A stretch of 64,000 nt of DNA from Bacillota bacterium (GCA_029781045.1 JAKOXL010000001.1:8084-72083), one strand, 5' to 3'. Shown: positions 2,402-55,371, counted from the first letter of the stretch. Notes: a model not told the origin generated them from the sequence alone. Numbers and translations: made by a program.

Positions 2402-2624
2402 ACTCGCCGGCAATAAAAGCGACGTCGTATCAAAGCTGGCAACTCCATGGGGTCATTGGCCCAATGGGCAAAGCAGCCCGACAAAGGGCTAGGAACTTGA
2501 GAGTGTACTGAAGAAGTTGCCCATATGCGTTCGTTGCAGGCTACTAAGGCCCAATCAACGCGGTCGTCGTTGCTCTTGGCAGGCACTCTAATATGACCAC
2601 GGCTAAGGGGTACCTCAAAGAAAA

Positions 2625-2658
2625 CAGGGGGCTGTCTTGCGACAGCCCCCTGTTTTCA
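2625..2658. terminator. bidirectional intrinsic terminator hairpin (GGGGCTGTC..GACAGCCCC family) between etfA and trkH
   Basis: cagggggctgtc-ttgc-gacagccccctg followed by ttttc. Lies between convergent genes. Confidence 0.6.
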
Positions 2659-5479: not shown

Positions 5480-5631
5480 TCTAACATCTCCTTCCCGCAT
5501 TATGCGGTGTGCATCTATGCTAATAATAATCTGCGAAGATGTCTACCTTGTCAACTACACAAATAGTGCATATTCAAAGGCCATAGAAAATAGAGGGCTA
5601 CCGCCCGCCTAAGGCGGCAGCCCGTTTGCAT

Positions 5632-7075: not shown

Positions 7076-7078
7076 AAA

Positions 7079-7109
7079 AGGGCTGTCGCAGAGACTATGC
7101 GACAGCCCT
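7079..7109. terminator. bidirectional terminator hairpin (GGGCTGTCGCA..GCGACAGCCC family)
   Basis: agggctgtcgca-gagactat-gcgacagccct. A T-run follows on the minus strand (cttttt). Lies between convergent osmC-like and membrane protein genes. Confidence 0.55.
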
Positions 7110-7121
7110 TGAGTTCTATAG

Positions 7122-8891: not shown

Positions 8892-9249
8892 ACTTCTCCC
8901 CTCCCTGGCTTGTTTATCTTCCCTATAACCATATTTATCATTTCCCCTTTTATCCTTACAGATTATATTCCCTAACCTTCCCATGACTTCGCCGGCTAAT
9001 CTTCTCATCCCTGCCCAGTTTTGACGTACCGTGGGTGGAAAGATCTAGTGAGTCCTCCTAGAGGGGACAGGGGTGGGTAAACTTGGTCAACAAGACTAAC
9101 TATATGACCTGCTGGACCATTACCTACCGCGCCGCTTTAGGCAGACCGGCAGTCGTGGTGCGGTATAAGGAGGAACCCTTGTCATCAAGCAACCGCGTCA
9201 CAAGGAGGATCGCCACCAGCGCATACTAAGCAAATAGTAACAACGGGGC

Positions 9250-9285
9250 TGTTCGCCTGCTGGCGAAGAGCCCCTAACCAATTAT
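9250..9285 (-). terminator. terminator-like hairpin downstream of the YpeB-like gene (variant of the GGGGCTGT palindrome family)
   Basis: ggggctgttcgcc-tgct-ggcgaagagcccc, with one mismatch. A T-rich run follows on the minus strand. Confidence 0.4.
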
Positions 9286-12060: not shown

Positions 12061-12157
12061 AGTAAGGCCTCCCTCTTGATTCTTATCACTTGGAACGGGT
12101 TTCCCCTTGTGTTTTATTTCTGTAGCCGTATCATTATCCCTGCTGGAAAAGATAAAA

Positions 12158-12181
12158 AGGGCTGTCGCAAAACAGCCCCTT
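12158..12181 (-). terminator. terminator hairpin (GGGCTGTCGCAAAACAGCCC) between the CBM-repeat gene and the M20 peptidase gene
   Basis: aagggctgtcgcaaaacagccccttat. A T-run follows on the minus strand (ctttttatctttt). Confidence 0.5.
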
Positions 12182-12192
12182 ATCATAGCAAA

Positions 12193-13611
12193 TTAGGTCA
12201 AGCGGCAGAAAATCACGTTATCTATATCCAATTCTGGGGTGGTTTCAGCATCATCGTCAGGGCAGCCGAATTGCACACGCGCGGCCACGGCGCCTCGAGG
12301 AGCAGGCTCCGTTACGCCAGCGTAAACCAACCACTTAATGGTGGTGATGCCGTTGCTCTCATGATTACTCTGTAAGATGGCACTTAACCCCAGACCGATT
12401 TCGTTACCGTTTCTATCCAGCCAGATAACTTGGGCCGTGAGATTACTCAAACCGTTACGGGCTCGGAAAGCAAAGCTCAACAGGAAGCAGTGATTCTCAG
12501 CGTAGCGGAGGGGAACATCTTGAAATAGGAAAGAGCCATCGTCCATTTCCGCATATTGGGTACCTTCATAGGAATCGTCTGCCGATGGAGTATCCACATC
12601 ATCGAAGGTCCAGGAGGTCAAACCGTTTTCAAAACCGGGGTTGAGAATTAAGTTAGTAGAGGCTACCCGGATGAAGATGACCTGATCAATATGCAGTGGT
12701 TCGGCAGTGAAGAAGATGATTCTGGCACGCACTGCTCCACGAGGGGCAGGACTGGTGACCCCAAGATAGGTCAGATATCCACCTTGCGTCAGCAGGGTGA
12801 GATTAGGAACAATGAGTTGTAAACCGGGTTCGCCGATAACCGTATCATTCCGATCCAACCATAATACTTGCACCGTTACAGCCGCCAAGGCAGGCGAGTG
12901 GTATCCAACACCTAGCAGATAGGTGGAGCCCCGAGGATGACGGGAGATGTCCACATCCTGCTGCAGCACCGCATTATCGGCATTGGCTACCGCTGCCCCT
13001 ATACCCTCAAGCCGGAAGAAGTAGCTGGGGGCAAAGGTCTCTGTTGTCCAAGAAGTCAAGCCTATTTCAAAACCCGGGTTGTTTACCAGGTTGCCACTGA
13101 GAACAGGGGCCAAAACTATCTGATCCAGTTGAATGAAGCTGGCTTCATTGCCTTCCTGTTTGGTAAATACCAAGCGAGCAAAGGCCGCCTGTGCCGGGGA
13201 AGGGTCCACAATATGGAAATGAGTCACCCGTTCGCTGTCCAGATCAGTCACCGCCTTAGGGTTAATGAAGAGACGGGCACCGTAACCAATAATCCGTTGG
13301 AAACTATCTAGCCAAATTACCTCCACAATCAGGCGCGGTGGGGGGACCAGCTCGGTCACCTGGGAACTTCTGAGGTTGAAGCTTAGGAGCAGAGGGTAGC
13401 CTCTTACCCCAAACAGAGGAATGTCCTGCCAAAGGGCAGCCTGTTCCGGCCCCATTTCCACCAGAAGGTTCCCTTCATAGGTGGGATGGCTGATGATTTC
13501 CACGTCACCAAAGATCTGCCACTCGGCAAAGTCCTGCTTGAAGCTTGGATTCTGGACCAGGTTTAGACCGGGGACGGGCCTACGCTCAACCCTGTATCTC
13601 CGTCTGGCCAT
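12193..13611 (-). CDS. protein made of three tandem CBM4/9-like (carbohydrate-binding, jelly-roll) domains, no signal peptide
   Basis: Three ~150-aa repeats each open with N(L/P)xFExGLTSW-type motifs (LVQNPSFKQDFAEW, LVNNPGFEIGLTSW, LILNPGFENGLTSW). Start at MARRR with AAGGAGGG 7 nt upstream. Confidence 0.55.
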   Translation of the reverse strand: MARRRYRVERRPVPGLNLVQNPSFKQDFAEWQIFGDVEIISHPTYEGNLLVEMGPEQAALWQDIPLFGVRGYPLLLSFNLRSSQVTELVPPPRLIVEVIWLDSFQRIIGYGARLFINPKAVTDLDSERVTHFHIVDPSPAQAAFARLVFTKQEGNEASFIQLDQIVLAPVLSGNLVNNPGFEIGLTSWTTETFAPSYFFRLEGIGAAVANADNAVLQQDVDISRHPRGSTYLLGVGYHSPALAAVTVQVLWLDRNDTVIGEPGLQLIVPNLTLLTQGGYLTYLGVTSPAPRGAVRARIIFFTAEPLHIDQVIFIRVASTNLILNPGFENGLTSWTFDDVDTPSADDSYEGTQYAEMDDGSFLFQDVPLRYAENHCFLLSFAFRARNGLSNLTAQVIWLDRNGNEIGLGLSAILQSNHESNGITTIKWLVYAGVTEPAPRGAVAARVQFGCPDDDAETTPELDIDNVIFCRLT

Positions 13612-13840
13612 GTCTTTTCCCTCCTTTCTCAAGTAGCTGCTTTCCCAATATTGTATGCAGTATAGAATGGTGGTGTGTCATTGTGGCTACACCAACAAGC
13701 TGGCAAGACAAGCAGCAAACCTTTGTACTCAAAGATAGACAAGTGGCATTGCGGAAAGCGGCGTGGTGAACGCCTATGGTATAATAGTTCGCGACCCAAA
13801 TGGCGAGCATTGCTCTAACAGAGGATGAAAAGACTGGGGG

Positions 13841-15465: not shown

Positions 15466-15982
15466 ACCTCATCTTCTGCTGACTGCAACGGGTGTCGTGT
15501 GCTCACACATACCAAGAGAACTCGCCCCATATATCTATAACACAGCCTATGGCGTCTAGAGGGGGCGATGTTTTGCCGCTGATCCTTTGCAGTGACCTGC
15601 TGGCCACATGGGGCTATGGTCAGGTCTTGGCACTACTGAATTTCCATCTAGTTGACCGGGGCCATGATCTGGCGACCATTGGTGTGCTCAATGCCACAAT
15701 GCTGCTGAGCAGCCTTATTCGTTCTAGGCTTACTGCATACCCTGGGCGCCATTATTGGTACCCGCCTAGGAGCCATACTACTGCAACAATCAAGTCAGCA
15801 CCTGCTGCTGGTGGCAACTGCAGGCATTGGCTTGGCCCTTTTGTTGGCTGTTATTTCGTTAACCAATGAAAAGAAAAAACCGCAAAGCCCTTAGCCTGCG
15901 GCGTTCCGCGTTCATCGTCATACACCTACTTCTAATTGCTCTCCGGAGGCCCCTTACCTGACCCATTTTCAGATCAAAAAGG

Positions 15983-16018
15983 CTTTTCGGCAAGCGCCGA
16001 AAAGCCTTTGTTCTCATT
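15983..16018. terminator. bidirectional terminator hairpin immediately 3' of tRNA-Ser(GGA)
   Basis: ggcttttcggc-aagc-gccgaaaagcc is an 11-bp perfect stem with T-runs on both sides. Confidence 0.6.
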
Positions 16019-16209: not shown

Positions 16210-17619
16210 TTAAGCCTTTTGCCAGATACGAGTGCCAACACTTACCTTGTTGCAGGTACCATTGTAGGCATGAAACTCCAATACTAATCCCGGCGGAAGA
16301 ACTTCGCCAGATCCGGATGAAGTGAAGACACTCCCACCACAGAACAAAAGTGGTTCGCAGTGCTTATCATTTTGGGCAACCAATACACCATTGGCGTTTA
16401 GCGCAATGCGAAGCTCTTCGTCGGCCTCCTGAGAGCTATAGACCCCAGTATAAATCGCCGGATTCTCAGGCTTACCGGACCAAACTTCATGTACCGAGTC
16501 GTGCTTTTGTTCTAGCGGCAATCCTAGCCTCATATTGAGGGCCGCATTGGTCAAAGGCGAACAATCTATGTCGCTGAGATTTGTCAAGACTGTAACAGCA
16601 AAGGCGCCATCCTTAATAAAACATCCGATAGCAGAGACTCCGGTTAACCCACCGTCATGCTCGCAAATAGCCACATCTTCAAACAAGCGCTTATACAATC
16701 CGTAGCAGTAAGTACCCCTTTTTGTCTCTGCGAAAGCCCTGCCAACAAGCCGTTCTACACAGCTTTCAGGGAAGATCCGTTTGCCGCCGTAAACCCCCCG
16801 GCAAGACAACGCCATGAAATACTTGTTCATATCCATTGCCGTTGACTTGATCCAGCCACAGCCTCGGTAAGGCGGGGCGTTATCCCAGTTGTTTGTACAA
16901 TGGATAACGCCATTCTTATCTTTAGTGAAGAGGCTTGTAACATTACCTTTCGGCAATAGAGCGTTCAGATCAAAACTGGTGCGTTCCATTCCTAAGGGTT
17001 GGAAGATACGCCGGTCTGCATAGGTTTCTAACGGCTCTCCTGCCGCTTTATCTATTACACTCGACAGCAGTGCGTAACCTTCGTTTAAGTAGCTCATATA
17101 TCGCCCTGGAGGTCCGAGAACGCGGAAGTTATCCCCTTGCGCAATGAAGGAGATGATGTCGTCTATATGCTCCACCTTGGTCGTGGACTCGGCCTTATAT
17201 CGTTCCTGTATCTCTGCCCTCCAGGGCTCCGTGGGAGTATGCCAGGCCAAAGACCAATCTAAGGTTGGTAGCGGTGGGATCCCGGCAGTGTGATTGGCCA
17301 AATGGTGCACCAACACTGCTTCCTGGGGAGTTCCTGGAATGCGGAAGTCAGGTAAGTACTTCGCTACCGGATCGTCAAAACTGAGTTTACCTTCATGCTC
17401 CAACAAGGCAGCCGCCAGACAAGTAATGGATTTGCTCAATGACGCTATACCAAAAATAGTGTCTGCCGTTGCCTTTTCTTTTCCATCACAGTCCCGGTAG
17501 CCGAATCCCCGGCTATACAGCACTCCGCTATCGTCGCTGACACAAATTGCTGCACCCGGCACCTCTTGCCGCTTAAGCTCCTGAGCAACATGCAAATCAA
17601 GCTTGGCCCAATCGTACAT
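16210..17619 (-). CDS. serine hydrolase, beta-lactamase / S12 D-peptidase family (D-aminopeptidase/D-stereospecific peptidase-like)
   Basis: SxxK active-site motif (ASLSKS). ~470 aa with a C-terminal extra domain as in S12 D-aminopeptidases. Paralog of the 18504-19919 gene. Confidence 0.75.
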   Translation of the reverse strand: MYDWAKLDLHVAQELKRQEVPGAAICVSDDSGVLYSRGFGYRDCDGKEKATADTIFGIASLSKSITCLAAALLEHEGKLSFDDPVAKYLPDFRIPGTPQEAVLVHHLANHTAGIPPLPTLDWSLAWHTPTEPWRAEIQERYKAESTTKVEHIDDIISFIAQGDNFRVLGPPGRYMSYLNEGYALLSSVIDKAAGEPLETYADRRIFQPLGMERTSFDLNALLPKGNVTSLFTKDKNGVIHCTNNWDNAPPYRGCGWIKSTAMDMNKYFMALSCRGVYGGKRIFPESCVERLVGRAFAETKRGTYCYGLYKRLFEDVAICEHDGGLTGVSAIGCFIKDGAFAVTVLTNLSDIDCSPLTNAALNMRLGLPLEQKHDSVHEVWSGKPENPAIYTGVYSSQEADEELRIALNANGVLVAQNDKHCEPLLFCGGSVFTSSGSGEVLPPGLVLEFHAYNGTCNKVSVGTRIWQKA

Positions 17620-17671
17620 TATCTTTCCTCCGCTCCACAGTCTCTACCGCGACCAACCAGGAAGCGCAGGC

Positions 17672-18469
17672 CTACACTATCCACTTTAATGTTCGCAACA
17701 CCTCATAGTAGCACGGGCTCTCAAAGGTTACTATGTTGGCCGTCTCCCTTTTGACTCCTGGGAAATATGAGACCTTTTCGGCATAGGTGTGCTCTTTGAA
17801 GAAAATCTCGACCTTAAAGTGTTCGGGCAGTTTGATCTTCGCTGCTTGCAAGTCTTGCCGTACGGCCTTTTCTGCCGCGTTACGGATATTCTCAACCACC
17901 AGATCCGGTGAATAGTTTCTTGTTAGGCTACCACTTCCGTCTTTGGTTGGCACCGTCAACAGACTGGGATGTAGTTCGTTTTCGTCCTCACAGAGCATTT
18001 TGTCTCCAGAGAGCAGTACAGTAGGCACTCCTTCCAAAGCACAAGCCCAGCTATAAATCATGAACTCGGAAGCAAAACGACCGTTAATCTTGATCCAAGC
18101 AGGCCTGCCAGTGAGCGTGTGAGACAGAGGATTACCCATCTTGCCAGCGGCCGAATGATAACCAACAAACATGGCACAGTCAAAGGTTTTATCTACTCCT
18201 TCAACCATGAGGTAAGGATGGCCCGACGTGTTACGCAGTAGTACTACATTTTTTGGCATTTGGGCCGGGTCTAGGTTTAGCCCGGAACCATGGGCATCTT
18301 TCACATAGACTTCAGTTGCCCCGCCGGCAAAGGCACCTTCACAGGCCGCCAATACTTCCCGCGTCATTTGCTTAACATGGGGAGCTGCCATCGGTTCCTG
18401 CGTAAAGGTTTCCTTCCATTCCGTCGTACTGGCGATACCTTCAATATCCGCGCTGATAAATACCTTCAT
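17672..18469 (-). CDS. dppA: D-aminopeptidase DppA (peptidase M55)
   Basis: MKVFISADIEGIA N-terminus and the M55 family pattern. 265 aa. Confidence 0.8.
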   Translation of the reverse strand: MKVFISADIEGIASTTEWKETFTQEPMAAPHVKQMTREVLAACEGAFAGGATEVYVKDAHGSGLNLDPAQMPKNVVLLRNTSGHPYLMVEGVDKTFDCAMFVGYHSAAGKMGNPLSHTLTGRPAWIKINGRFASEFMIYSWACALEGVPTVLLSGDKMLCEDENELHPSLLTVPTKDGSGSLTRNYSPDLVVENIRNAAEKAVRQDLQAAKIKLPEHFKVEIFFKEHTYAEKVSYFPGVKRETANIVTFESPCYYEVLRTLKWIV

Positions 18470-18503
18470 GTGGTCTTATCCTCCCTTTCAAGCTAGCGGC
18501 TAG

Positions 18504-19919
18504 CTAAAGCCTTTGGTACATTCTATTGCCCGTCTGCATAGCCCAAGCTTTATCATTGCGAATGTAGAATCTTATCAGCATGCAATCCCGTAATGGGTTG
18601 CCACCTTCTCGGGGAGCCAGGAAGTAATTCTCTCCACAGTAGACTAGGGGCCGCTTTTCTCCTTCAGCAAAAGTGAGCACCAATCCGCCCTTCTCTCTCG
18701 CCACCTTATAGGGATAAGCATAAATTGGCATACCATGCTCCCGCGCCCCATAGAAACCTTCATAGATCCAAGGTTCCTGCGGCGGCCTCTGGGAGATTAC
18801 GAAGTTATGAGTATGCTCTTCAGGGTTATGACCTTGGGCAATATTGAAAGCTCCCATGAGAATGCGTACAGCGTCCACGTTACCCACGTTGGTCAAAACT
18901 GTACCCGCAATCCCCCGATCTTTGAAGAATGCCCCTGCGGAGGAGACTCCTTTTAAGCCCCCGGCATGGGAAAACAGCACTTCCCCGCGACAACGGACTT
19001 TCGCCAGACCATAGGCATAGACACTGGTCTTCAGAGTGGGGAAATCATTGCCCAGCAGCCTATCCACTACGCTCTCAGGCAAGATACGTCGGCCCTCAAA
19101 TACTCCATTTTGCGATAGCATCTTGTAGTACTTATACATATCGTGGCTCGAAGAAATAATCCAGCCACAACCACGGTAGGGAGGAGCCATTTGCCAATTG
19201 TCCGAAGCGGTGACTTCTCCATTTTCCTCTTTAGTAAAGACCTGGGTTACGTTATCGAAATCTTTAAGACGGTGATAGCCTAAGGCTGTACGGGTCATAC
19301 CTAGAGGCTGAAAGACCTTTTTTTCCATATACTCTTCAATGCTCATATCAGCTGCCTGGTCCACAATGGACGAGAGTATGGCGTAACAATCGTTGGAGTA
19401 GCTGGTATACTCCCCAGGTTGCCCCAACACTTGGTAATCGCCTTCCATTATATAGTCTATAATGTCTTCTACTGTATCGACTTTGATTAGACTATCAAGC
19501 TGGTCTACCGTCCGTTTCTCTCCCGGATCGCGTTCGGTATGCCTAGCCATACAGTGGGTGAGGGTAGGTAACAACGGCAACCCGGTGGTATGACTCAAGA
19601 GATGCTTAATAAGCACCGCATCCTTGGGTGTTCCCGGTATCTTAAAACGGGGGAAGAAGCGGGTAACCGGATCATCCATGCTCAACTTGCCTTCATGCTC
19701 CAGCAGCGCAATACAGGTGGCCGTCACCGCCTTCGATAGAGATGCAACGCCCATTATTGTATCGCCATCCACCGGCTTTTCCCTTTTTCCATCTCTATAA
19801 CCGTAGGCCTTATCGTAGACTATCCCGTTTCCGTCGGAAAAGGTGATCGATAAGCCTGGGATGTTCTGCCTTTCCATTTCCTTGATGATAAAGCTGTCCA
19901 TTAAGTTCGCATTAAACAT
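18504..19919 (-). CDS. serine hydrolase, beta-lactamase / S12 D-peptidase family
   Basis: ASLSKAV SxxK motif; paralogous to the 16210-17619 gene. Start at MFNANL with an AGGGAGGAT RBS. Confidence 0.75.
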   Translation of the reverse strand: MFNANLMDSFIIKEMERQNIPGLSITFSDGNGIVYDKAYGYRDGKREKPVDGDTIMGVASLSKAVTATCIALLEHEGKLSMDDPVTRFFPRFKIPGTPKDAVLIKHLLSHTTGLPLLPTLTHCMARHTERDPGEKRTVDQLDSLIKVDTVEDIIDYIMEGDYQVLGQPGEYTSYSNDCYAILSSIVDQAADMSIEEYMEKKVFQPLGMTRTALGYHRLKDFDNVTQVFTKEENGEVTASDNWQMAPPYRGCGWIISSSHDMYKYYKMLSQNGVFEGRRILPESVVDRLLGNDFPTLKTSVYAYGLAKVRCRGEVLFSHAGGLKGVSSAGAFFKDRGIAGTVLTNVGNVDAVRILMGAFNIAQGHNPEEHTHNFVISQRPPQEPWIYEGFYGAREHGMPIYAYPYKVAREKGGLVLTFAEGEKRPLVYCGENYFLAPREGGNPLRDCMLIRFYIRNDKAWAMQTGNRMYQRL

Positions 19920-19947
19920 ACATATCCTCCCTACATTCAACTTCAGG

Positions 19948-21069
19948 CTACCGAGAGCTAAGAATACTCATTATCGCGGAGGCTAATGTGTCCACTGAAC
20001 CAGCATTGTTAGCTAATACAACCACTCCAGCCTTTGACTGCGGGCAGAAAATAGTGGTAGAACAGTATCCTCCGACCAATCCGTTATGGTCGTAGATCTT
20101 TCCGTAGGTGGTGTTGCCGATATGCCAACCTAGACCCACAGTCCTTCCGCCGGAGAAATGGGTTTGCTGGGCCAAAGCCATAGCTGCAGACAAACGCTCA
20201 TCCACCGACATAGCACCTAAATTGGCCGCCAAGAAGCGGATCATGTCGCGGGCCGTACTCTTAATACCGCCTGCCGCCTGCAAGGCGTCGAAGTCCCATT
20301 CCTTTCCAGGCGTGCCACTGGCCAGATGGGGTCCAGCCTTGCGAGCCTGCAGAGTCTCATCGGGAAAAACTGTGGTAGACGACATGCCCAACTTATCACA
20401 GATCAGCTCTTTCAGCATGGCGTCATAGGGCTTTCCGTAGGCATCAGACAAACACTCCCCTAGGACCCCCATACCTAAGTTGGAATACTCATAGCGGGTC
20501 CCGGGGGCCCAGCGTAGCGCATTTAGCCGCATGAACTCATTCATATCCTCACGGCTAAAGTCGGCAAAGGGGTTCATGGGATTGAGTACAACCGGATCAC
20601 GGGGCAAGGCGGAGCTATGGGTGGCCAGATGCTTCAAGGTCATCTCCACACCATCATACTCACCGGCTTTACACCCGGGAAAAAACTCTTTCACCGGTGT
20701 ATCCAGAGAAACTATTCCCTGCAACGATAGATCGGCCAGTATTGTGCCAGTGAAGGTTTTAGTCAGCGAAGCAATTTCAAACAGCGTGTTCTCATCAATC
20801 GGCTTGCCGTCTTTATGGGTACGGCCGTAGTTAAAGTAGGCGATCTTTCCATCTTTAACAACCGCTACTGCCATGCCCATAAAACCCTTGGAGTCAAAAT
20901 AGGCTTGGCATTCCCGCCCAATCTTCTCGCGCAGTTCCTTGTCTTCCAGAAAGGGTAACTCGCCCGCCTTTGCGCCCCCTCCAGACAACGAGGAACAGGC
21001 CGCGATCATGGCAGACATGACTATTACAGCCACCAGACCTAACCATTGCCTGCACCTTCTTGTAGACAT
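19948..21069 (-). CDS. beta-lactamase family (class C-like) lipoprotein
   Basis: Signal peptide plus lipobox (MIAACSS). ASLTKTF SxxK motif. 373 aa. Confidence 0.75.
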   Translation of the reverse strand: MSTRRCRQWLGLVAVIVMSAMIAACSSLSGGGAKAGELPFLEDKELREKIGRECQAYFDSKGFMGMAVAVVKDGKIAYFNYGRTHKDGKPIDENTLFEIASLTKTFTGTILADLSLQGIVSLDTPVKEFFPGCKAGEYDGVEMTLKHLATHSSALPRDPVVLNPMNPFADFSREDMNEFMRLNALRWAPGTRYEYSNLGMGVLGECLSDAYGKPYDAMLKELICDKLGMSSTTVFPDETLQARKAGPHLASGTPGKEWDFDALQAAGGIKSTARDMIRFLAANLGAMSVDERLSAAMALAQQTHFSGGRTVGLGWHIGNTTYGKIYDHNGLVGGYCSTTIFCPQSKAGVVVLANNAGSVDTLASAIMSILSSR

Positions 21070-21099: not shown

Positions 21100-23193
21100 C
21101 TAAACCAAGAGACACGATACCCAATGGCCCGGCTCCACTTCCCGCAGTTTAGGCTCCTCTTCCCCACAGCGTTTTTGACAGACTGGGCAGCGGGTATGGA
21201 AGGCACAACCAGAGGGTGGATTTACTGGGCTGGGCATATCGCCTTCTAACCTGATGCGCTCACCCTTGTCACCGCTTATCTTAGGCACCGAAGACAGGAG
21301 TGCCTTTGTATAAGGATGCAAAGGATTGCGGTAAACATCCTTCTTGTCGCCGAGTTCAACGATTTTTCCCAAGTACATGACAGCCACCCGATCCGAGATA
21401 TGGTGCACAACCGCCAGATCATGGGAAACGAAAACGAGCGACAGTTCATAGTGCTCTTGTATCCGTCGCAAGAGGTTAATAATCTGCGCCTGAATTGACA
21501 CGTCCAGGGCCGAAACCGGCTCATCACACACAATTAGCTTGGGGTTGACCGATAAGGCCCGAGCGATACCAATGCGTTGCCGCTGGCCACCCGAGAACTC
21601 ATGGGGGTAACGGTTAAAATAGGAACGTTCCAAGCCGCATTCGTCCATCAACTCTAAAACCCGCAACAGGATCTCCTTTTCCGAGGTCAGAGTGCGCTGA
21701 ATACGGATTGGTTCGGCAATAATCTCACCCACCGTCATGCGGGGATCCAGTGAGGCATAGGGATCTTGGAAAATGATCTGCATAACCTTGCGGTCAAACT
21801 CGGGGTTGCGATGTCCGGTGGAGAGGAAATCGGCAGCCGAGCTGTGGAAGAATCCGTACATAAATGTGTCGGCGTTCGGGAAGCTAGGACCCCAGTCGCC
21901 TAAGAAGGACTGCACGTTACCGGTGGTGCGCTTGTCAAACCAAACGCCGCTTTCCACCTGATCGATCTTGGCCGTCATATTGCAGGCGGCAAAGTCCTGT
22001 TGCATGATCTGGTAAACCTGATAGAAGGTGCCGGTACCCACACAAGTCATCTCAAACTCGATACCATCCGGATAACCAGCTTCAGCTAGTAAAGCTTTAG
22101 CCTTCTCTGGGTTGTACTCAAAACCTGGTAGATTGGGATCATAGCCAGGAACACCTTCCGGTAGAATGGTGTTAACAGCCGGCCACAGACCCTTGAAGAA
22201 CTCTCTGGAAATCTTGTCATTGTCAAAGGCATAGGCAACAGCTTCGCGCACCTTGGGGTTATCGAAGGGCTTTTTGCCATTGTTCATGACGAAGAAGACT
22301 TGCGAGAGGGAGTTCTGAATCTTTACGTTATCTGCGAAGTCTGGGTTAGACAGATACTGTTGAGCCATGGTCAAGCCAAGACCACAATAGTCGATGTTAC
22401 CTGCCTCAAACTCTAGATATCTGGTGTTCTCATCCATGTTGTAGAACTCGAAACCATCCACATTGGGCTTTAGGGTACGTCCATTGTAGACGTTATGGTT
22501 ATAGTTGGGGTTAGGCTTCATAACGATCTTGGTCTCTGGATCGAAGGACTCTAAGATAAAGGGACCCGTACCAACAAGTGTATCAATACCCCAACGATCG
22601 CCGGCTGCTTCGCGGGCGTGCTTAGGCACAATACCTAAGTATTCGTTGGCCAGAGCATGAACAAAGGCAGCATAGGGGCTCTCTAGCGTGATGGAGAATT
22701 TGTACTTGTCAATGACCTTGAAGCCTGCCAAAGAATCGGCCTTGCCATCCATCATTTCTTTGGCGCCCAAGATGAAGTCAATCATCCAAGTGTTGAGACA
22801 GTTGGTGGCTGGATTGAAGAAGGTATTGAAGGTATACTCTACGTCTTCACTGGTGAGCTCAACACCATCATGGAAGAGAATGCCTTCTTTAAGTTCAAAG
22901 GTGTAGGTCAAGCCGTCTTCACTAACAGTTGGGAAATCCTTCACGAGCAGTGGGTACATTTCGTACGTAAAAGGCCGCTGGCCAATAAGGGGTTCACAGA
23001 TAAAGCTGTAGGGGGTGGCCACTCGTGGATAGGTGGATTTCATCGCATCGATATGGCCATCCGTGCCGTAGTCTCCACCTAACCGCATAATCTTGTCGCC
23101 GCTAGGCTGAGGCTCAGGGGTTGATGGGGTACATCCGACAAGCGCACTGATGAGCATAAGTGAAACTAACAGGACTGCCAAAAACCGCTTCAT
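21100..23193 (-). CDS. chimeric ORF: family-5 peptide/nickel substrate-binding lipoprotein fused in-frame to the C-terminal half of an OppF/DppF ATPase lacking Walker A; probable internal deletion remnant of an opp/dpp operon
   Basis: N-terminal lipoprotein signal (LVGCTPS) and an SBP_bac_5-like body reaching the ...NPEFDRKV motif. The ORF then continues directly into [25 protein letters not shown]..., with the ABC signature FSGGQRQR, Walker B LIVCDEP and the C-terminal oligopeptide-ATPase extension. No GxxGxGKS/T is present. Start at MKRFL with an AAGGAGGAT RBS. Confidence 0.6.
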
Positions 23194-23221
23194 ACGTATC
23201 CTCCTTTGTTTTTTGTGGCAA

Positions 23222-23247
23222 TAAACGAAACATCTCATCGATGTTTA
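23222..23247. promoter_or_regulatory. inverted repeat AAACATC-N5-GATGTTT; candidate TetR operator just upstream of the SBP::OppF ORF
   Basis: Perfect 7-nt inverted repeat with a 5-nt spacer, 30-50 bp upstream of the 23193 start codon, in the region divergent from the TetR gene. Confidence 0.25.
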
Positions 23248-25230: not shown

Positions 25231-26511
25231 TCATCTGGTAGGCCGGGTAATACGCTCTACACCCATATACGGCCGCAAGACTTCGGGCACGATTACTTCG
25301 CCTTCCGCCGTCTGGTAGTTCTCTAAAATTGCGGCTACAGTACGGTCAACAGCGAGCCCCGAACCATTCATAGTATGTACAAATTCGGGCCGTGCTTTCG
25401 GTTCCGGACGATAACGAATATTGATACGCCGCGCTTGGAAATCTTCGAAGTTGCTCACAGAAGAAATTTCCACATAGCGGTCGTAACTGGGCATCCAGAC
25501 CTCCGGATCATACTTCATGCTGGCGGTAAAGCCCAAATCACCAGTACACATTTTCATCACTCGGTAAGGCAAGCCCAAGAGCTGCAGAATGTGCTCCGCA
25601 TCGTTTAACAGCTTTTCCATTTCTTCATAGCTGGTTTCTGGCCGCGTAATCTTCACCAGCTCCACCTTATGGAATTGATGCATGCGGATCACACCACGGG
25701 TATCTCGCCCAGCCGATCCGGCTTCCCGCCGGAAGGAAGGGCAGTAGGCCACATAGTAAATAGGTAGCTGGTCGGCCTCCAAAATCTCGTCCCGGTGCAG
25801 GTTCGTTACCGGCACTTCTGCCGTCGGATTGAGGAAATAGTCGGTATCCGTTAGCTTAAAGGCATCGTCTTCAAACTTAGGCAGCTGGCCCGTACCCGTC
25901 ATGCTGGTGCGGTTAATTATGTAAGGTGGTGAGACTTCTCTATACCCATGCTGTTGGGTATGGACGTCCAGCATGAAGTTGATTACAGCCCGATGCAGTT
26001 TGGCCCCCAACCCCTTGTAGGCAATAAAACGGCTACCGGTTACTTTGGCACCCCGCTCCCAGTCGATGATGTCCAAATCGGTGGCCAACTCCCAGTGAGG
26101 CTTGGGCGTAAAATCAAACTTCGTCGGCTCCCCATGACTACGCACAAAAACATTGGCCGTTTCATCGGGTCCAACAGGTACGCTTTCATGGGGCATGTTG
26201 GGTAGCGATAGTAATTCTGCCTCCAAGTCGGCTTCCACTTGGCGCAGCTCCTCATCCAGCTCTTTTATGCGTTGCCCCAGAGCTCGGGTTTCTTCGATCA
26301 GACTGCTGGCGTCTTGCTTAGCTTTCTTTAGCTGAGCCACCTGTTGTGAGGCCTGATTACGGCGATTCTTAAGCTGCTCCACCTCAGCTAAGATGGTGCG
26401 TCGCCGCTCATCCAAACGCAAGAATACATCCAGATCAGCATCCACACCCTTGTTGATTATGGCCTGTCGCACCTTTTCCGGATTGGCACGAATAAACTTA
26501 GGATCTAACAT
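25231..26511 (-). CDS. serS: seryl-tRNA synthetase
   Basis: N-terminal [15 protein letters not shown], a coiled-coil arm and class II aaRS motifs. 426 aa. GGGGAGGAAGG RBS. Confidence 0.9.
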
Positions 26512-26534: not shown

Positions 26535-26830
26535 TTGTTACTTCGCTGCAAAAAAACAAAGTCCCTCACTAAAAGTGAGGGACGGGAAAACCGCGGTACC
26601 ACCCTGATTGACCCAAAATGGGCCCAGCTCTGCACAGATAACGGCTGTCCCGGTCCCAGTCTACCTGGTCTGCTCCCAAGCGGAATACTTCTCAGCGCCA
26701 CGGTTCCCACCTACCACCGTGTCTCTTCAACTGCGCCTGATAGAAGCAATTTCTTGTTCATCGCATTTAGCAGTTTATTTGCGATAGTATATCACTGACA
26801 TGTGGGCGATGCAAGCCACCATAGCCTGCG
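26535..26830 (-). promoter_or_regulatory. T-box riboswitch leader of serS (likely UCC Ser specifier) with terminator/antiterminator
   Basis: On the minus strand the conserved T-box AGGGTGGTACCGCGG lies at 26590-26604. It is followed directly by the terminator CCCGTCCCTCACTTTTAGTGAGGGAC plus TTTGTTTTTTT. An upstream AGAGA GA-motif and a UUCCGC segment sit in the candidate specifier loop. Confidence 0.75.
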
Positions 26831-28212: not shown

Positions 28213-28245
28213 GGGGGCTGTCGCAAGACAGCCCCTTTGGTTTTT
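28213..28245 (+). terminator. intrinsic terminator after aspB (GGGGCTGTC-GCAA-GACAGCCCC plus T-run)
   Basis: ggggctgtc-gcaa-gacagcccc followed by tttggttttt. Confidence 0.65.
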
Positions 28246-28376
28246 ATTATGCTCTGGGGCAATCCCGGTAACGACAGATGGCCCGGTTGTCCTTGGCTGG
28301 ATGCCCTGGTTTTGCCACAGCCCTACGGAATGCAAAGAAAAGGAGGCTGTTTTGCGGCAACCCCTTCTTTTCCTAA

Positions 28377-28913
28377 TTAGATAGGAAGGTCAACCAACTG
28401 TTGGCGCAATGCTTGCCTGGCCCGGTACAGGCGGCAGCGAACTGACTCGATGGAGCACTCGAAGGCCTGGGCAAGTTCTTCATAGGACAGGCTTTTGATA
28501 TACTTTAGAATAAGCAAGTTGCGGTAAATCTCGGGCAGACGGGCTAGGGCCTGCTCTAGCGAGCGGCGTAGATCTTGCAATTCTAGGCGACGCAAAACAT
28601 CGTTGCCCACGCTAAGACTGGCCTCGGTCTGGTGCAGCTCGGCCCAATTGTCATCGAGGGATACCTGATACAACCGGGAGTTACGTTGGCAGTAATCTCT
28701 GTATACGTTAGCCATAATGCGCTGCACCCAGGTGGCAAAAGCAGCCTCTCCCCGAAAACGGGGCCAGGCGCTATAGGCTTTCATCAGCGCTTCTTGCACC
28801 AAATCCTCCGCTTCTTGCCAATTGCCGGTTAAGGCCCGGGCCTGCATACGGAGCTTTTCCCAGCAAGCACTAAGAGCGTGCTCGAAGGACTGGGCCGTTT
28901 GTTCAAAACTCAT
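28377..28913 (-). CDS. RNA polymerase sigma-70 factor, ECF subfamily
   Basis: Sigma-70 region 2 (DLVQEALMKAYSAW...) and region 4 HTH (SYEELAQAFECSIESVRCRLYRAR). Start at MSFEQTA with an AAGGGGTGA RBS. No anti-sigma ORF is adjacent. Confidence 0.8.
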   Translation of the reverse strand: MSFEQTAQSFEHALSACWEKLRMQARALTGNWQEAEDLVQEALMKAYSAWPRFRGEAAFATWVQRIMANVYRDYCQRNSRLYQVSLDDNWAELHQTEASLSVGNDVLRRLELQDLRRSLEQALARLPEIYRNLLILKYIKSLSYEELAQAFECSIESVRCRLYRARQALRQQLVDLPI

Positions 28914-29025
28914 CGGTATCACCCCTTGTATGTTTTTCCATTGCCTGCCCATAATTAAAGGTACAAGCGGATCGTTGCCGCCTCACAACGGCATCTCAAA
29001 CTATCAGGTAAAGGAACTGATCGCC

Positions 29026-38481: not shown

Positions 38482-38515
38482 AGAAGGGCTGTCGCAAGAC
38501 AGCCCTTCTTTCTTT
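38482..38515. terminator. bidirectional terminator (GGGCTGTC-GCAA-GACAGCCC family)
   Basis: agaagggctgtc-gcaa-gacagcccttct followed by ttctttc. Lies between convergent genes. Confidence 0.6.
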
Positions 38516-38579
38516 ACGGTATCCGCTGGCGGTGGTCGCTTGGGACATGTGAGATCCTAGTGCGAACACCCGTCAGTAG

Positions 38580-40797: not shown

Positions 40798-40837
40798 GGT
40801 CCGATGCCTCCGCAGGCGCATAAAGTGCAGTCGCACT

Positions 40838-41066
40838 AAGGTTTTCAAGTACCCCGTGCGGATACTGCTATGGGGCCGTTGGTCATACGCACGGCGCGTT
40901 GGGCCCAACAATCAGTAGAACGAAGGAGCCAAGGGAAAGCAGCGACAACAGGCCCAGCTGCCCTTGAACAGCTCATTCCGACCGAGGGTGGGCACAGGCG
41001 CTCTAGTGTGACCACGGCCATCGGTAGAACAAACAACAAGGGGCTGTTTTGCGACAGCCCCTTTTA
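40838..41066 (+). repeat. copy 1 of a ~230-nt conserved noncoding element (candidate sRNA or MITE-like repeat) ending in a GGGGCTGT..ACAGCCCC terminator hairpin
   Basis: About 75% identical to 47349-47590. Shared blocks are gtcgcacta(a/g)gg, atacgcac(g/a)gcgcg, aaagcag(c/a)gacaa, agctcattccgac and gcgctctagt, then the family hairpin. Confidence 0.5.
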
Positions 41067-41158
41067 TGGTCTGGAGGGCAGTGGGCAAACAAGAGCCCTA
41101 GCACCCAACCGCTATCTGAGATCTTCCTAGGACAACCCTTCTTAACGGCAATTCTCAC

Positions 41159-43414: not shown

Positions 43415-43531
43415 TAGATCTATTGAGAAAATAAAGGTCCGAACCTTGAATTCTATTAGGTTACAAACTCGCATTTCTGAGCATAAGTAAAGAGCCCAAC
43501 CTTGCGGTGGGCTCTTGTAGCTTTATGTTTT

Positions 43532-47333: not shown

Positions 47334-47348
47334 GAGGCACATTAAGGG

Positions 47349-47590
47349 TGCCGTCGCACTAGGGTCTCTAGCATCCGAACCAGGAAGCTATTGCTATTGG
47401 GGCCGCAGATATACGCACAGCGCGCTGGACCCAATAATTGGGAGAGTGAGGGAGGCAAGGAAAAGCAGAGACAAGGGGCCAATTGCCTTGGGAGCCGAGC
47501 TCATTCCGACAGAGCTGGGCTGCGCTCTAGTATGGCCATGGCCCGCAGGTGCATAACGAAACAGGGGCTGTCGTGAGACAGCCCCTAATG
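47349..47590 (+). repeat. copy 2 of the ~230-nt conserved noncoding element (candidate sRNA/MITE-like), ending in the GGGGCTGTC-GTGA-GACAGCCCC hairpin
   Basis: See copy 1. Lies between convergent genes. Confidence 0.5.
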
Positions 47591-51860: not shown

Positions 51861-52721
51861 TCACTGCTGCAAGAGCAACTCCAAAAGACGTTCCAGTTCT
51901 TCATTGTCATAGTAGATGATTTCAATCTTACCCCGCTTACGCCCTGGCAGTAGTCGCACTTGAGTTCCCAAGGTGGACGCCAGTCGCCGCTCCAAGTCTT
52001 CGATTTCCGCTGGGCGTTTTTTCTTTGTTTCACGTGAAACAGAAGCAGCCTGTCCTGCCAAGTGGCGCTTAACCAACTCCTCCGTCTGTCGCACGTTCAA
52101 TCCCTGCTCGATCACCATTTCTGCTAGACTAAGTTGCAAAGCCGGATCCGCCACGGCCAAAAGGGCGCGCCCATGACCAGCAGAAATTGTTTCACGTGAA
52201 ACAAGCTCCTGCAAAGCCTGGGGTAGCTGCAATAGCCGCAGCGTATTGGCCACATGGGGACGACTACGGCCTACCCTTTGGGCCACCTCCTCCTGCGTCA
52301 GCCCCAGCTGTTTCATCAGCTGTTCATAACCCCGGGCTTCATCTAGGGGATTCAAATCCTCCCGCTGCAAGTTCTCCACGATGGAGAGCTCCATCATCTC
52401 CCGATCGCTTAACTCCTTGACCAAGGCTGGAATATCCTCCAGCCCCGCCAATTGGGCCGCCCGACAACGCCGTTCGCCGGCCAATAGCTGATAACGTTTC
52501 CCCTTGGGTCGGACTATAACGGGCTGCAGTATACCGTGCAGCCTTATGGATTCGGCCAACTCTAGTAAAGTCTCCTGCTCAAATTCACGACGAGGCTGAT
52601 ACGGATTAGGATCAATCAAACGCAAAGGCACTGTAGTTACATCCTTAGCCGTTTCCGTTCCGGGGTCAACTGGTATTAAGGCCTCTAACCCCCTACCTAA
52701 ACGCGATCTAGCCACGAGCAA
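51861..52721 (-). CDS. spo0J: chromosome partitioning protein ParB/Spo0J
   Basis: ParB box (LLAGERRCRAAQLAGL) and an HTH. Lies downstream of soj. Confidence 0.9.
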   Translation of the reverse strand: MLVARSRLGRGLEALIPVDPGTETAKDVTTVPLRLIDPNPYQPRREFEQETLLELAESIRLHGILQPVIVRPKGKRYQLLAGERRCRAAQLAGLEDIPALVKELSDREMMELSIVENLQREDLNPLDEARGYEQLMKQLGLTQEEVAQRVGRSRPHVANTLRLLQLPQALQELVSRETISAGHGRALLAVADPALQLSLAEMVIEQGLNVRQTEELVKRHLAGQAASVSRETKKKRPAEIEDLERRLASTLGTQVRLLPGRKRGKIEIIYYDNEELERLLELLLQQ

Positions 52722-53472: not shown

Positions 53473-53570
53473 TCTTCACTCCTTATGTCATAATCGCACC
53501 TACCCAGTTGTCCCTGCTTACTTCTCTCTTCACCGCTTTTACTCCTGCCAAAGCGAAAGAAAAGGCCTGG

Positions 53571-54389: not shown

Positions 54390-54482
54390 TGCTCTCACCT
54401 CCTTTTTCTTAGTCAAAACAAAAAGCACTGCTCCGTAGAGCGTGCTTCCTATTATACATTATGTAAACTAGCTTTGACCAGC

Positions 54483-55310: not shown

Positions 55311-55371
55311 CCCTTCTCTCTCTTATTCTGCTTGCAAGGGCGTCTCTCCTTCCCGCTACAGCCAAATATGC

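What the first reader, a model, noticed from the sequence alone, without database searches (positions are those of the whole stretch)
28213..28245. Family of at least seven near-identical palindromic terminator hairpins (GGGGCTGTC-loop-GACAGCCCC)
The stem GGGCTGTC / GACAGCCC recurs at 2625-2652, 7079-7109, 12158-12181, 28214-28235, 38482-38509, 41037-41063 and 47563-47586. A diverged variant lies at 9250-9285. Three copies share the loop GCAAGA/GCAAAA. All sit at gene ends, mostly between convergent genes, and are followed by T-runs on one or both strands.

Ordinary intrinsic terminators are not sequence-conserved. A shared stem sequence implies a dispersed repeat family (REP/BOX-like) that doubles as bidirectional terminators. 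It may spread by mobilisation, or be the binding site of a specific protein.
Basis: seen in the sequence. Interest (0 to 1): 0.5.

Follow-up and report, generated by a model that had tools for sequence, protein, structure and literature searches.

The report
Repeat-family bidirectional terminator hairpins
The near-identical GC-rich hairpins at gene ends in this uncultured Bacillota genome look like two-way transcription terminators and belong to a lineage-specific family of copied intergenic repeats. The largest members are undescribed ~240-nt non-coding elements, so this is a familiar kind of thing (REP/BOX/MITE-like) but a new family.

Summary
Five exact and two one-mismatch copies of GGGCTGTC-loop-GACAGCCC lie in 64 kb (0 expected). 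An eighth lies just outside the window. They occupy all six gapped intergenic regions between convergent protein genes.

Anatomy fits bidirectional intrinsic terminators: stable stems, an A-run before and a T-run after.

The hairpin sequence alone is not diagnostic. The same 20-mer occurs singly, as an ordinary terminator, in over 100 unrelated genomes, and control hairpins are about as common in viral contigs.

The signal is local multiplicity plus descent:
- Three hairpins are the 3' end of a ~240-nt non-coding element with no Rfam, plasmid or phage match. In relatives it is bounded by a perfect 12-bp inverted repeat, GGGGCTGTCGCA...TGCGACAGCCCC.
- Other hairpins carry 3'-anchored fragments of this element.
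- At orthologous sites, relatives have unrelated terminators or shorter forms.
- Copies resemble paralogues in the same genome more than positional orthologues.

Best reading: a lineage-restricted, non-autonomous modular repeat family that supplies terminators and spreads by trans-mobilisation or gene conversion. The mobilising mechanism is unknown. This is a new member of a known kind, of moderate interest.

The parts
2416..2657 (+). Full composite element copy 1 (most diverged). It has a degenerate 5' arm (2419-2431 GCGACGTCGTATC), a ~150-nt core, the conserved module CTCTAATATGACCACGGC (2586-2603), an A-rich linker and a 17-bp terminator hairpin (2620-2657). It starts 15 nt after the stop of the ETF-alpha/ferredoxin gene (1217-2401). 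The hairpin ends 17 nt before the stop of trkH (2674-4122, minus strand).
7078..7110 (.). Solitary family hairpin with the long arms AAGGGCTGTCGCA / TGCGACAGCCCTT and a 7-nt loop. This is the two 12-bp element ends joined by a short loop. It lies between convergent OsmC (plus) and DUF4153 (minus) genes. It is inherited vertically: relatives with 78% and 75% DUF4153 identity carry GGGGCTGT-type hairpins at the same site, and the 67% relative does not.
9245..9274 (.). Diverged variant. Only the outer GGGGCT/AGCCCC pairs are shared, and the inner stem is TTCGCC/GGCGAA. It is not a clear family member.
12156..12181 (-). Solitary family hairpin. On the minus strand it reads AAGGGGCTGTTTTGCGACAGCCCTTT and is followed by TTATCTTTT. 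It has the same T.G-wobble form as the 3' hairpin of the elements. It lies 12 nt after the stop of the minus-strand gene 12193-13632, upstream of the co-directional M20 peptidase gene.
28213..28236 (+). Family hairpin GGGGGCTGTC-GCAA-GACAGCCCCT followed by TTGGTTTTT. It sits 9 nt after the stop of the aspartate aminotransferase gene. Relatives have unrelated terminators at this site.
28283..28365 (+). Partial (3') element copy. It has a module-like stretch GCCCTGGTTTTGCCACAGCC (28303-28322), a linker and a degenerate hairpin GGAGGCTGTTTTGCGGCAACCCC (28342-28365). On the minus strand this hairpin, followed by a T-run, sits 12 nt after the stop of the ECF sigma gene (28377-28952).
   Evidence: (D4)
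38482..38537 (-). Family hairpin (38482-38509, AGAAGGGCTGTC-GCAA-GACAGCCCTTCT on the plus strand) plus an adjacent minus-strand module fragment (to 38537, GACCACCGCCAGCGG...). It lies between convergent DUF1858 (plus) and DUF348/G5/3D (minus) genes. Relatives keep the outer stem AGAAGGGCT/AGCCCTTCT but have a different inner stem and a gap about 57 nt shorter.
40822..41063 (+). Full composite element copy 2. It has a degenerate 5' arm (AGTGCAGTCGCAC), a core, the module CTCTAGTGTGACCACGGC (41001-41018), a linker and the hairpin 41038-41063. It follows the asparaginase II stop (40797). It is 79-81% identical to copies at other loci of a related organism. The orthologous gap in relatives lacks the core (141, 101 and 67 nt against 361 nt here).
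41064..41133 (-). Inverted partial copy of the 3' part of the element (module GGGCTCTTGTTTGCCCACTGCC at 41077-41098, minus strand). It shares the same hairpin 41038-41063. Together with the plus-strand module it makes a ~125-nt imperfect palindrome centred on the hairpin.
47344..47586 (+). Full composite element copy 3. It has a degenerate 5' arm (GGGTGCCGTCGCAC), a core, the module CTCTAGTATGGCCATGGC (47525-47542), a linker and the hairpin 47563-47586 with a GTGA loop. It lies between convergent polysaccharide deacetylase (plus) and FAD oxidoreductase (minus) genes.
5595..5623 (-). Terminator-like hairpin GGGCTGCCGCC-TTAGG-CGGGCGGTAGCCC. It shares only the outer GGGCTG/AGCCC part and is a possible distant relative.

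Best explanation
The hairpins are Rho-independent terminators that work on both strands. In RNA each forms a 9-17-bp G+C-rich stem. The A-run before it and the T-run after it give a U-tract to transcripts arriving from either side, so each hairpin closes both genes of a convergent pair.

The hairpins resemble one another because they are members or remnants of one lineage-restricted, non-autonomous intergenic repeat family. They did not converge.

The full family member is a ~240-nt non-coding element with this layout:
- a 5' end GGGGCTGTCGCA;
- a ~175-nt core;
- a highly conserved ~20-nt module (GCGCTCTAGTRTGACCACGGCC);
- an A-rich linker;
- GGGGCTGT(T/C)-TTGC-GACAGCCCC.

The first and last 12 nt are a perfect inverted repeat. 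Shorter members keep only the 3' part. The smallest members are just the two ends joined by a 4-8-nt loop, which is the 'terminator hairpin'.

Copies are added to, replaced in, or homogenised between 3' intergenic regions. Either an enzyme encoded elsewhere does this (MITE/REPIN-like mobilisation) or gene conversion between copies does. Copies persist where a terminator is useful and harmless, that is, between convergent genes.

Shown: the family, its modular anatomy, lineage-specific gain and turnover, and location.
Inferred: terminator activity, which rests on anatomy only, and the copying mechanism.
For: Multiplicity:
- 5 exact and 2 near copies in 64 kb, against 0 in shuffles.
- An eighth copy lies 2.3 kb beyond the window in same-species contigs, again between convergent genes.
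- 6 of 12 perfect-stem terminator-like hairpins in the window are family members, and c12158 adds a seventh. Stems in relatives are mostly heterogeneous: one other stem, AAGGCTTTC(T/C)GG, recurs at low frequency.
- All 6 gapped intergenic regions between convergent protein genes carry a family hairpin.

Terminator anatomy:
- Hairpin dG ranges from -12 to -34 kcal/mol, with T-rich tails on the strand of the adjacent gene.
- The same hairpin elsewhere is flanked by A and T runs.

Larger unit:
- There are three full ~240-nt copies, plus 3'-anchored partial copies at 28283-28365, 41064-41133 (minus) and 38510-37 (minus). No 5'-only fragments were found.
- Related copies occur in metagenome contigs of a sister organism. 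Three of these are ~90% identical to one another.
- They begin with GGGGCTGTCGCAC and end with TGCGACAGCCCC.

Gain and turnover at orthologous sites:
- asparaginase->DUF4097 gap: 361 nt here, against 141 nt (ends + module + hairpin, no core), 101 nt and 67 nt (plain unrelated-loop terminator) in progressively more distant relatives.
- AAT->sigma gap: relatives have unrelated terminators and no family hairpin in ~20 kb each.
- DUF1858->G5 gap: only this genome has the family inner stem plus a module fragment.
- Family hairpin counts fall from 7 per 64 kb here to 0 per 21 kb in the 75% and 67% relatives.

Copying or exchange:
- W41037 is 79-81% identical to non-orthologous copies in the sister organism, but only 53-69% identical to the other window copies.
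- The sister organism's copy at the site orthologous to W47563 is 92% identical to its own paralogue L112 and 70% identical to W47563.
- L118 matches W41037 at 97% over the 3' 94 nt but is diverged at the 5' end and sits in a different gene context.

Non-autonomous and not gene-specific:
- Flanking genes are unrelated housekeeping genes, with no transposase among the window ORFs scanned or the genes beside the related copies.
- Indels not in multiples of three rule out a conserved ORF.
Against: - No mobilising enzyme, target-site duplication or empty/filled polymorphism between strains was found. Same-species contigs are identical in element content.
- At least one hairpin (7079) is plainly vertical over three lineages, so part of the family's similarity is ordinary descent.
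- The hairpin sequence is a generic terminator solution found sporadically in many phyla, so a solitary copy could in principle be convergent.
- Genome-wide copy number is unknown. Only ~67 kb of this genome, next to oriC, was seen.
- Termination has not been measured. Some copies have weak T-runs on one strand.
- Modest covariation in the element means an RNA-level function is not excluded.
Confidence: 0.6

Rival explanations
1. The ~240-nt element is mainly a functional structured RNA: a 3'-UTR element or a multi-copy small RNA whose own intrinsic terminator is the family hairpin. The family spreads or persists because of that RNA function. The 5' arm can pair either with the conserved module (a closing helix) or, over 12 bp, with the 3' arm of the terminator. 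This gives two alternative folds.
For: - Fold energies are lower than shuffles (z = -3.6 and -2.1).
- RNAalifold predicts a helix between the 5' arm and the module, plus internal helices. Seven pairs are changed on both sides, against 2.0 in column shuffles (0 of 500 shuffles reach it), with one compensatory change in the closing helix in the most diverged copy.
- The 3' ~60 nt are much better conserved than the rest, across two species.
- The core is ~80% identical between species at non-orthologous loci, while neighbouring intergenic DNA is unalignable.
- The MFE of the sister-organism copies uses the 12-bp long-range helix rather than the local hairpin.
- The layout of structured domain, linker and terminator is that of an sRNA gene.
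Against: - No match in Rfam 15, even at E <= 10.
- The tested structure was derived from the same six-sequence alignment, so the covariation test is biased.
- The 5' arm has decayed in all three window copies while the local hairpin is kept.
- The density (3 full and 3 partial copies in 64 kb), the truncation series and the unrelated flanking genes look like a repeat element rather than a regulator.
- No promoter or expression evidence exists.
- This reading does not exclude the best explanation, since many MITE-like repeats are co-transcribed and folded.
Confidence: 0.2
2. The hairpins are ordinary, independently evolving intrinsic terminators. They look alike only through shared ancestry of a few sites and convergence on a thermodynamically favoured solution: a G-rich stem closed by C-GNRA-G. 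No copying process is involved.
For: - The identical 20-mer hairpin occurs as a plain terminator in over 108 loci from many phyla.
- Control hairpins of the same composition are about as common in viral contigs.
- The 7079 site shows simple vertical descent with compensated changes.
- Outer stems of two sites (ETF-alpha downstream; DUF1858->G5) are conserved with relatives while only the apical part differs.
- GCAA and GTGA loops are GNRA tetraloops.
Against: - Of 108 loci from other genomes that carry the hairpin, only 1 has a second copy in its ~8 kb of sequence. This window has 7 copies in 64 kb.
- Zero copies are expected by shuffling.
- Window-lineage gains come together with fragments of the same larger element and with wholesale replacement of the intergenic DNA.
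- The shared T.G-wobble form GGGGCTGTTTTGCGACAGCCC at 12158, 41038 and several related copies is a shared derived imperfection, not an optimum.
- Copies cluster by genome, not by locus.
Confidence: 0.1
3. The palindrome is the recognition site of a specific protein. One option is a REP-type hairpin handled by a RAYT/IS200-like tyrosine transposase. The other is a double-stranded CTGTC-N4-GACAG operator for a dimeric DNA-binding protein, perhaps linked to the origin-proximal location. Terminator-like anatomy would be secondary.
For: - The inverted repeat is perfect, with a constant core and a mostly constant 4-nt spacing.
- The location between convergent genes resembles that of REPs.
- The window is the oriC-proximal region, with ParB/Noc-type genes.
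- The 12-bp terminal inverted repeats of the element could be transposase binding sites.
Against: - Half-sites outside hairpins are at chance frequency.
- Loop length varies from 4 to 13 nt, and the arm sequence varies with compensation (GCTATCGC/GCGATAGC, GCTGTGCA/TGCACAGC). This argues for pairing rather than base-specific double-strand recognition.
- There is no conserved flanking tetranucleotide and no clustered arrays as in REP/BIME.
- Syntenic origin-proximal regions of relatives lack the motif, so there is no conserved origin function.
- No RAYT or Y1 transposase was found among the window ORFs scanned with Pfam or in the precomputed annotation of syntenic loci of relatives.
Confidence: 0.1

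Closest known systems
REP / BIME / REPIN elements of Enterobacteria and Pseudomonas (mobilised by RAYT transposases)
   Same: - Short G+C-rich extragenic palindromes in many copies.
- Concentrated at gene 3' ends and between convergent genes.
- Co-transcribed, and able to attenuate transcription and stabilise upstream mRNA (bioRxiv 10.64898/2026.03.23.713779; own knowledge for RAYT/REPIN).
- Locations differ between close relatives.
   Different: - No sequence similarity.
- No conserved GT[AG]G head.
- Perfect rather than bulged palindromes.
- Mostly single rather than in arrays.
- Followed by true T-runs, so they are canonical intrinsic terminators rather than partly Rho-dependent ones.
- Some are embedded as the ends of a ~240-nt element.
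- No RAYT gene seen.
BOX elements of Streptococcus pneumoniae (boxA-boxB-boxC modules)
   Same: - Modular intergenic repeat with full and truncated forms.
- Non-coding and predicted to fold.
- No transposase of its own (own knowledge).
   Different: - Unrelated sequence and lineage.
- Here the 3' module is always kept and is a terminator.
- BOX elements are not defined by a terminator hairpin.
Miniature insertion sequences that fold into RNA hairpins near gene 3' ends: Correia/NEMIS (Neisseria) and the Ype, Efa and Bor stem-loop families
   Same: - Species-specific repeat families that span stem-loops.
[quoted passage not shown]
- Proposed to affect termination or mRNA stability (PMC1590033).
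- Terminal inverted repeats, as in MITEs (PMC3184786).
   Different: - No target-site duplication or autonomous partner identified here.
- The inverted-repeat ends themselves collapse into a canonical bidirectional terminator.
- An extra internal copy of the left end next to the right end makes a local hairpin.
A-tract/U-tract bidirectional intrinsic terminators of Firmicutes
   Same: - A G+C-rich stem, 5' A-run and 3' T-run.
- Sits close to stop codons and between convergent genes (PMC1590033, and the terminator scans here).
   Different: Ordinary terminators in relatives have mostly heterogeneous stems. Here about half share one stem and loop and are linked to a larger repeat.
DNA uptake sequences of Neisseria, found as inverted pairs in terminators
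   Same: A conserved oligomer recurs as inverted repeats that form terminators (own knowledge).
   Different: Uptake sequences are also highly over-represented as single copies. Here single half-sites are at chance level.

Membership tests
Rho-independent (intrinsic) terminator | Stable G+C-rich RNA hairpin immediately followed by a U-tract on the transcribed strand | tested here: met
   Stems are 9-17 bp with dG from -12 to -34 kcal/mol. There are >=4-6 T in the first 8 nt after the stem on the strand of the adjacent gene for all seven copies. The other strand is weak for some copies.
Rho-independent (intrinsic) terminator | Located just downstream of a stop codon or the end of a transcription unit | tested here: met
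   Each hairpin lies 4-30 nt from a stop codon on at least one side. All 6 gapped convergent protein-gene pairs carry one.
Rho-independent (intrinsic) terminator | Transcripts actually end there | not testable with these tools
   This needs Term-seq or 3' RACE.
REP / REPIN (RAYT-associated) | Conserved 5' head tetranucleotide (GT[AG]G) next to an imperfect palindrome | tested here: not met
   Flanks are only A-rich or T-rich and differ between copies. The palindromes are perfect.
REP / REPIN (RAYT-associated) | Occurs in clusters or inverted doublets (BIME/REPIN) | tested here: not met
   Copies are single. The exception is the 28213/28342 pair, 107 nt apart, which is element-like.
REP / REPIN (RAYT-associated) | A RAYT (Y1 transposase) gene flanked by REPs in the genome | not testable with these tools
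   None was found among the window ORFs scanned with Pfam or in the precomputed annotation of syntenic loci of relatives. The rest of the genome is not available.
MITE (non-autonomous transposon) | Terminal inverted repeats | tested here: met
   Four related copies (L116, L120, L112, L118) have a perfect 12-bp repeat, GGGGCTGTCGCA...TGCGACAGCCCC. The left repeat is degenerate in the three window copies.
MITE (non-autonomous transposon) | Target-site duplication flanking the element | tested here: not met
   No consistent direct repeat lies outside the ends. Flanks merely extend the palindrome with A/T.
MITE (non-autonomous transposon) | Autonomous IS with the same ends; filled and empty sites among strains | tested here: inconclusive
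   No matching IS was seen. Four same-species contigs all have the same content. Between species, the core is present here and absent at the orthologous site of the 89% relative. Loss cannot be excluded.
BOX element | Sequence homology to boxA/boxB/boxC modules | not tested
   No BOX consensus was compared directly, and Rfam does not model BOX elements. The element has no Rfam match. The resemblance is architectural only.
Any Rfam 15 RNA family | Score at or near the family's gathering threshold | tested here: not met
   Best hits were 17-19 bits against thresholds of 43-66.

The most novel reading that the evidence does not exclude
The ~240-nt element is an RNA-level entity rather than a DNA transposon. 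There are two versions of this reading.

(a) A 3'-UTR riboregulator. Its 5' arm can switch between the closing helix with the conserved module and a 12-bp helix with the terminator's 3' arm.

(b) A unit copied through terminated transcripts, that is, retro-copying primed at the RNA 3' end. This would explain three things:
- every partial copy is anchored at the terminator and truncated from the 5' side;
- the element ends exactly at the hairpin;
- no transposase or target-site duplication is seen.
Probability: 0.1. Interest if true: 0.75.

Novelty: new member of a known kind. Interest (0 to 1): 0.4.

Why it matters
Three points would matter if the best reading holds.

- **Terminators can be acquired.** In this lineage a large share of terminators between convergent genes appear to be delivered or overwritten by a repeat family, rather than evolved in place. 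This bears on how 3' ends and operon boundaries turn over.
- **A caution for annotation.** The same hairpin is a generic terminator in unrelated phyla. Sequence identity alone therefore does not prove a repeat family. Local multiplicity and orthologous-site comparison are needed.
- **A new non-coding family.** The ~240-nt element comes from uncultured, Syntrophomonadaceae-like Bacillota found in digester and bioreactor metagenomes. It could be modelled for annotation. It is also a tractable case of a foldback element whose ends are a functional signal.

The work does not open a long-standing question.

Tried and rejected
- **Rfam.** The whole window at gathering thresholds, and two element copies at E <= 10, gave only tRNAs and noise.
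- **Plasmid and phage collections.** blastn with a well-preserved copy found no match. A viral-contig scan for the module found 0 hits.
- **DNA-uptake-sequence or Chi-like oligomer.** Rejected, because single half-sites are at chance level.
- **Gene-specific cis-regulator (riboswitch or leader).** Rejected. Flanking genes are unrelated, and all three window copies face a convergent gene rather than a downstream ORF.
- **Small protein gene.** Rejected. Copies differ by 1-nt indels, and the 109-aa antisense ORF in L120 is not conserved.
- **Target-site-duplication model (left arm duplicated on insertion).** The 5' arm and the internal left arm share only GGGGCTGT. The 5' arm is complementary to the 3' end over 12 nt, so the terminal-inverted-repeat description fits better. 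Only L112 shows an extended direct match.
- **Orthology of the M20 peptidase genes next to c12158 and L120.** Not orthologous.
- **Group II intron, attC, IS200/IS605 end or omega-RNA resemblance.** Considered from memory. No supporting feature was found: no left-end hairpin, no domain V-like hairpin, no R'/R'' motifs. None was tested formally.
- **Genome-wide count in the source genome.** Not possible.

Full report
**1.

The pattern GGGCTGTC-N(3-16)-GACAGCCC matches five times: 2629-2648, 7080-7108, 28215-28234, 38486-38505 and 47565-47584. None of 100 dinucleotide-preserving shuffles gave a match.

Two more copies differ by one base in one arm: 12159-12178 and 41041-41060.

The 8-mer occurs 15 times on both strands, against 2.7 expected. 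Twelve of those are hairpin arms, so isolated half-sites are at chance level.

The '9250 variant' shares only the outer GGGGCT/AGCCCC pairs.

The window has 52% G+C. It is the origin-proximal region of an uncultured Bacillota chromosome:
- dnaA lies at 62091-63443 and a cluster of DnaA boxes at 61670-62014.
- The window sequence is matched only by metagenome contigs.
- Its proteins are closest to Syntrophomonadaceae-like metagenome-assembled genomes.

**2. Anatomy and position fit bidirectional intrinsic terminators**

- Stems are 9-17 bp once the flanking A/T pairs are included.
- dG ranges from -12 to -34 kcal/mol.
- There is a T-rich tail on the strand of the adjacent gene.
- Six copies occupy all six gapped intergenic regions between convergent protein genes in the window.
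- c12158 follows a minus-strand stop codon by 12 nt.
- Two other convergent gaps involve tRNA genes and use other hairpins.
- Same-species contigs extend 2.9 kb beyond the window. They show an eighth family hairpin (GGGCTGTTCTGCGACAGCCC), again between convergent genes.
- Of 12 perfect-stem terminator-like hairpins in the window, 6 belong to the family, and c12158 adds a seventh. Comparable stretches of relatives show mostly heterogeneous stems; one other stem, AAGGCTTTC(T/C)GG, recurs at low frequency.

**3. The hairpin sequence alone is not diagnostic**

They came from Prevotella, Oscillospiraceae, Achromobacter, Flavobacterium, Treponema and many others. Most are A-run, hairpin, T-run, which is an ordinary terminator.

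Only 1 of these 108 loci has a second copy in its ~8 kb of sequence.

In viral contigs the family hairpin has 4 hits. Three control hairpins of the same composition have 3, 0 and 2.

So a G-rich 8-bp stem closed on a GNRA loop is a generic solution that recurs sporadically. What is unusual here is the local multiplicity.

**4. The hairpin is part of a larger element**

Three hairpins (2620-2657, 41038-41063, 47563-47586) are the 3' ends of homologous ~240-nt non-coding stretches. Each starts within about 10-25 nt of the stop codon of the upstream gene.

Profile searches of the window also find 3'-anchored partial copies:
- 28283-28365, with a degenerate second hairpin;
- 41064-41133 on the minus strand, sharing the 41038 hairpin;
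- 38510-38537 on the minus strand.

No 5'-only fragments were found.

A metagenome scan for the module plus the left arm found seven related copies. Six are on MTKW01 contigs and one is on an ENA bioreactor contig.

In the best-preserved copies (L116, L120, L112, L118) the element begins with GGGGCTGTCGCAC. It ends with GGGGCTGT(T/C)-TTGC-GACAGCCCC. The first and last 12 nt are a perfect inverted repeat.

Solitary hairpins of the 7079 type (GGGCTGTCGCA-7 nt-TGCGACAGCCC) are exactly those two ends joined by a short loop.

The element has no match in Rfam at E <= 10, in plasmids or in phages. It has no conserved ORF. Its flanking genes are unrelated housekeeping genes, with no transposase among the window ORFs scanned or the genes beside the related copies.

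**5. Orthologous-site comparison shows gain, replacement and exchange**

Syntenic loci came from relatives at about 89, 83, 75 and 67% protein identity. The MTKW01 contig L122 matches L125, the 89% relative, in this region. The other MTKW01 contigs are assumed, not shown, to come from the same organism.

| Site | This genome | Relatives |
|---|---|---|
| asparaginase->DUF4097 | 361 nt: full element, hairpin and inverted partial copy | 89%: 141 nt (ends, module and hairpin, no core); 83%: 101 nt (module-like stretch and a different hairpin); 75%: 67 nt (plain terminator) |
| AAT->sigma | Two family hairpins (28213, 28342) | Three relatives: unrelated terminators, no family hairpin in ~20 kb each |
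| DUF1858->G5 | Family inner stem and module fragment | Outer stem conserved, inner stem different |
| ETF-alpha downstream | Family inner stem and element | 67%: outer stem conserved, inner stem different |
| DUF4153->OsmC | Family-type hairpin | Shared by three lineages with compensated arm changes (vertical inheritance); 67%: unrelated stem |

Family hairpin counts fall from 7 per 64 kb here to 0 in the 75% and 67% relatives.

Identity patterns point to copying or exchange between copies:
- W41037 is closer to non-orthologous copies of the sister organism (79-81%) than to its own paralogues (53-69%).
- The sister organism's copy at the site orthologous to W47563 is 92% identical to its paralogue L112, but 70% identical to W47563.
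- L118 matches W41037 at 97% over the 3' 94 nt only.

These patterns indicate copying or gene conversion among copies. Descent alone does not explain them.

**6. RNA structure**

The elements fold somewhat better than shuffles, with z = -3.6 and -2.1.

RNAalifold pairs the 5' arm with the conserved module and predicts internal helices. Seven pairs are changed on both sides, against 2.0 in shuffles. However, the structure was derived from the same six sequences, so this is suggestive only.

In the sister-organism copies, the MFE uses the 12-bp end-to-end helix rather than the local hairpin.

An RNA-level role is therefore not excluded, and it is compatible with a co-transcribed repeat.

**7. 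Interpretation**

The best-supported reading is a lineage-restricted, non-autonomous, modular repeat family.
- Its inverted-repeat ends constitute a canonical bidirectional terminator.
- It is retained at convergent gene junctions, where it is useful and harmless.
- Solitary hairpins are minimal or decayed members, and some are now inherited vertically.

The copying mechanism is inferred, not shown. It could be trans-mobilisation or gene conversion. No transposase, target-site duplication or strain-level polymorphism was found.

The family works like REP, BOX, Correia or Ype/Efa-type elements (PMC1590033; PMC3184786; bioRxiv 10.64898/2026.03.23.713779). It is not a member of any of them by sequence or by their defining features.

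**8. Verdict**

| Item | Verdict |
|---|---|
| Observation | Confirmed |
| Novelty | New member of a known kind |
| Interest | Moderate (0.4) |

Noticed in passing
window 61347-63443: This is the replication origin region. A cluster of DnaA boxes (3 exact TTATCCACA and 7 one-mismatch sites) lies at 61670-62014, upstream of dnaA (62091-63443). It is preceded on the minus strand by rnpA, yidC, jag, mnmE, mnmG, rsmG, two parB-family genes (one probably noc) and a parA/soj-family gene (52708-61346).
   Followed up: partly
window 26575-26770 (-): A T-box leader lies upstream of serS (25231-26511). It scores 85.9 bits, just under Rfam's gathering score of 93, so the default scan missed it. The hairpin 26561-26583 is its terminator and is conserved in relatives (L137 9521, L138 9566).
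   Followed up: partly
window 4313-4409 (-): ARAGORN calls a 97-nt tRNA-Ala(tgc) inside the TrkA-domain gene (4073-5500). Rfam's tRNA model does not report it. It is probably a false positive.
   Followed up: no
window 15978-16009; L135 2896 and 4265; L131 11789-11841; L138 635: A second terminator stem, AAGGCTTTC(T/C)GG...CC(A/G)GAAAGCCTT, recurs at different sites in several relatives and once in the window. Stem sharing among terminators may be more general in this clade.
   Followed up: no
window 43490-43516; L128 13506; L123 13504; L126 4623: A hairpin AAGAGCCCA(N9)TGGGCTCTT upstream of the DUF4097 gene pair is conserved in position and stem across relatives, unlike the other terminators. 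It may be a conserved regulatory or terminator structure.
   Followed up: no
window 21100-23238 (-): A single 712-aa ORF combines an SBP_bac_5 solute-binding domain (residues 93-469) with the C-terminal part of an ABC ATPase and an oligo_HPY domain. This is an unusual fusion or a frameshifted or merged gene pair. It sits next to three paralogous beta-lactamase-family genes and a D-aminopeptidase gene (16210-21069).
   Followed up: no
L112 8217-8523 (-): This copy of the element carries an extra ~55-nt internal insertion (and two Ns) in the core, relative to L116 and L120. It shares its exact 3' end and hairpin variant (GGGGCTGTTTTGCAACAGCCCC, with a compensated T-A pair) with L122/L125.
   Followed up: partly
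window 9296-10699 (-) and 12193-13632 (-): Two long ORFs have no Pfam match. In same-species contigs the first is called as two genes (235 and 192 aa). The second (479 aa) shows internal repeats of an NPGFE..LTSW motif.
   Followed up: no
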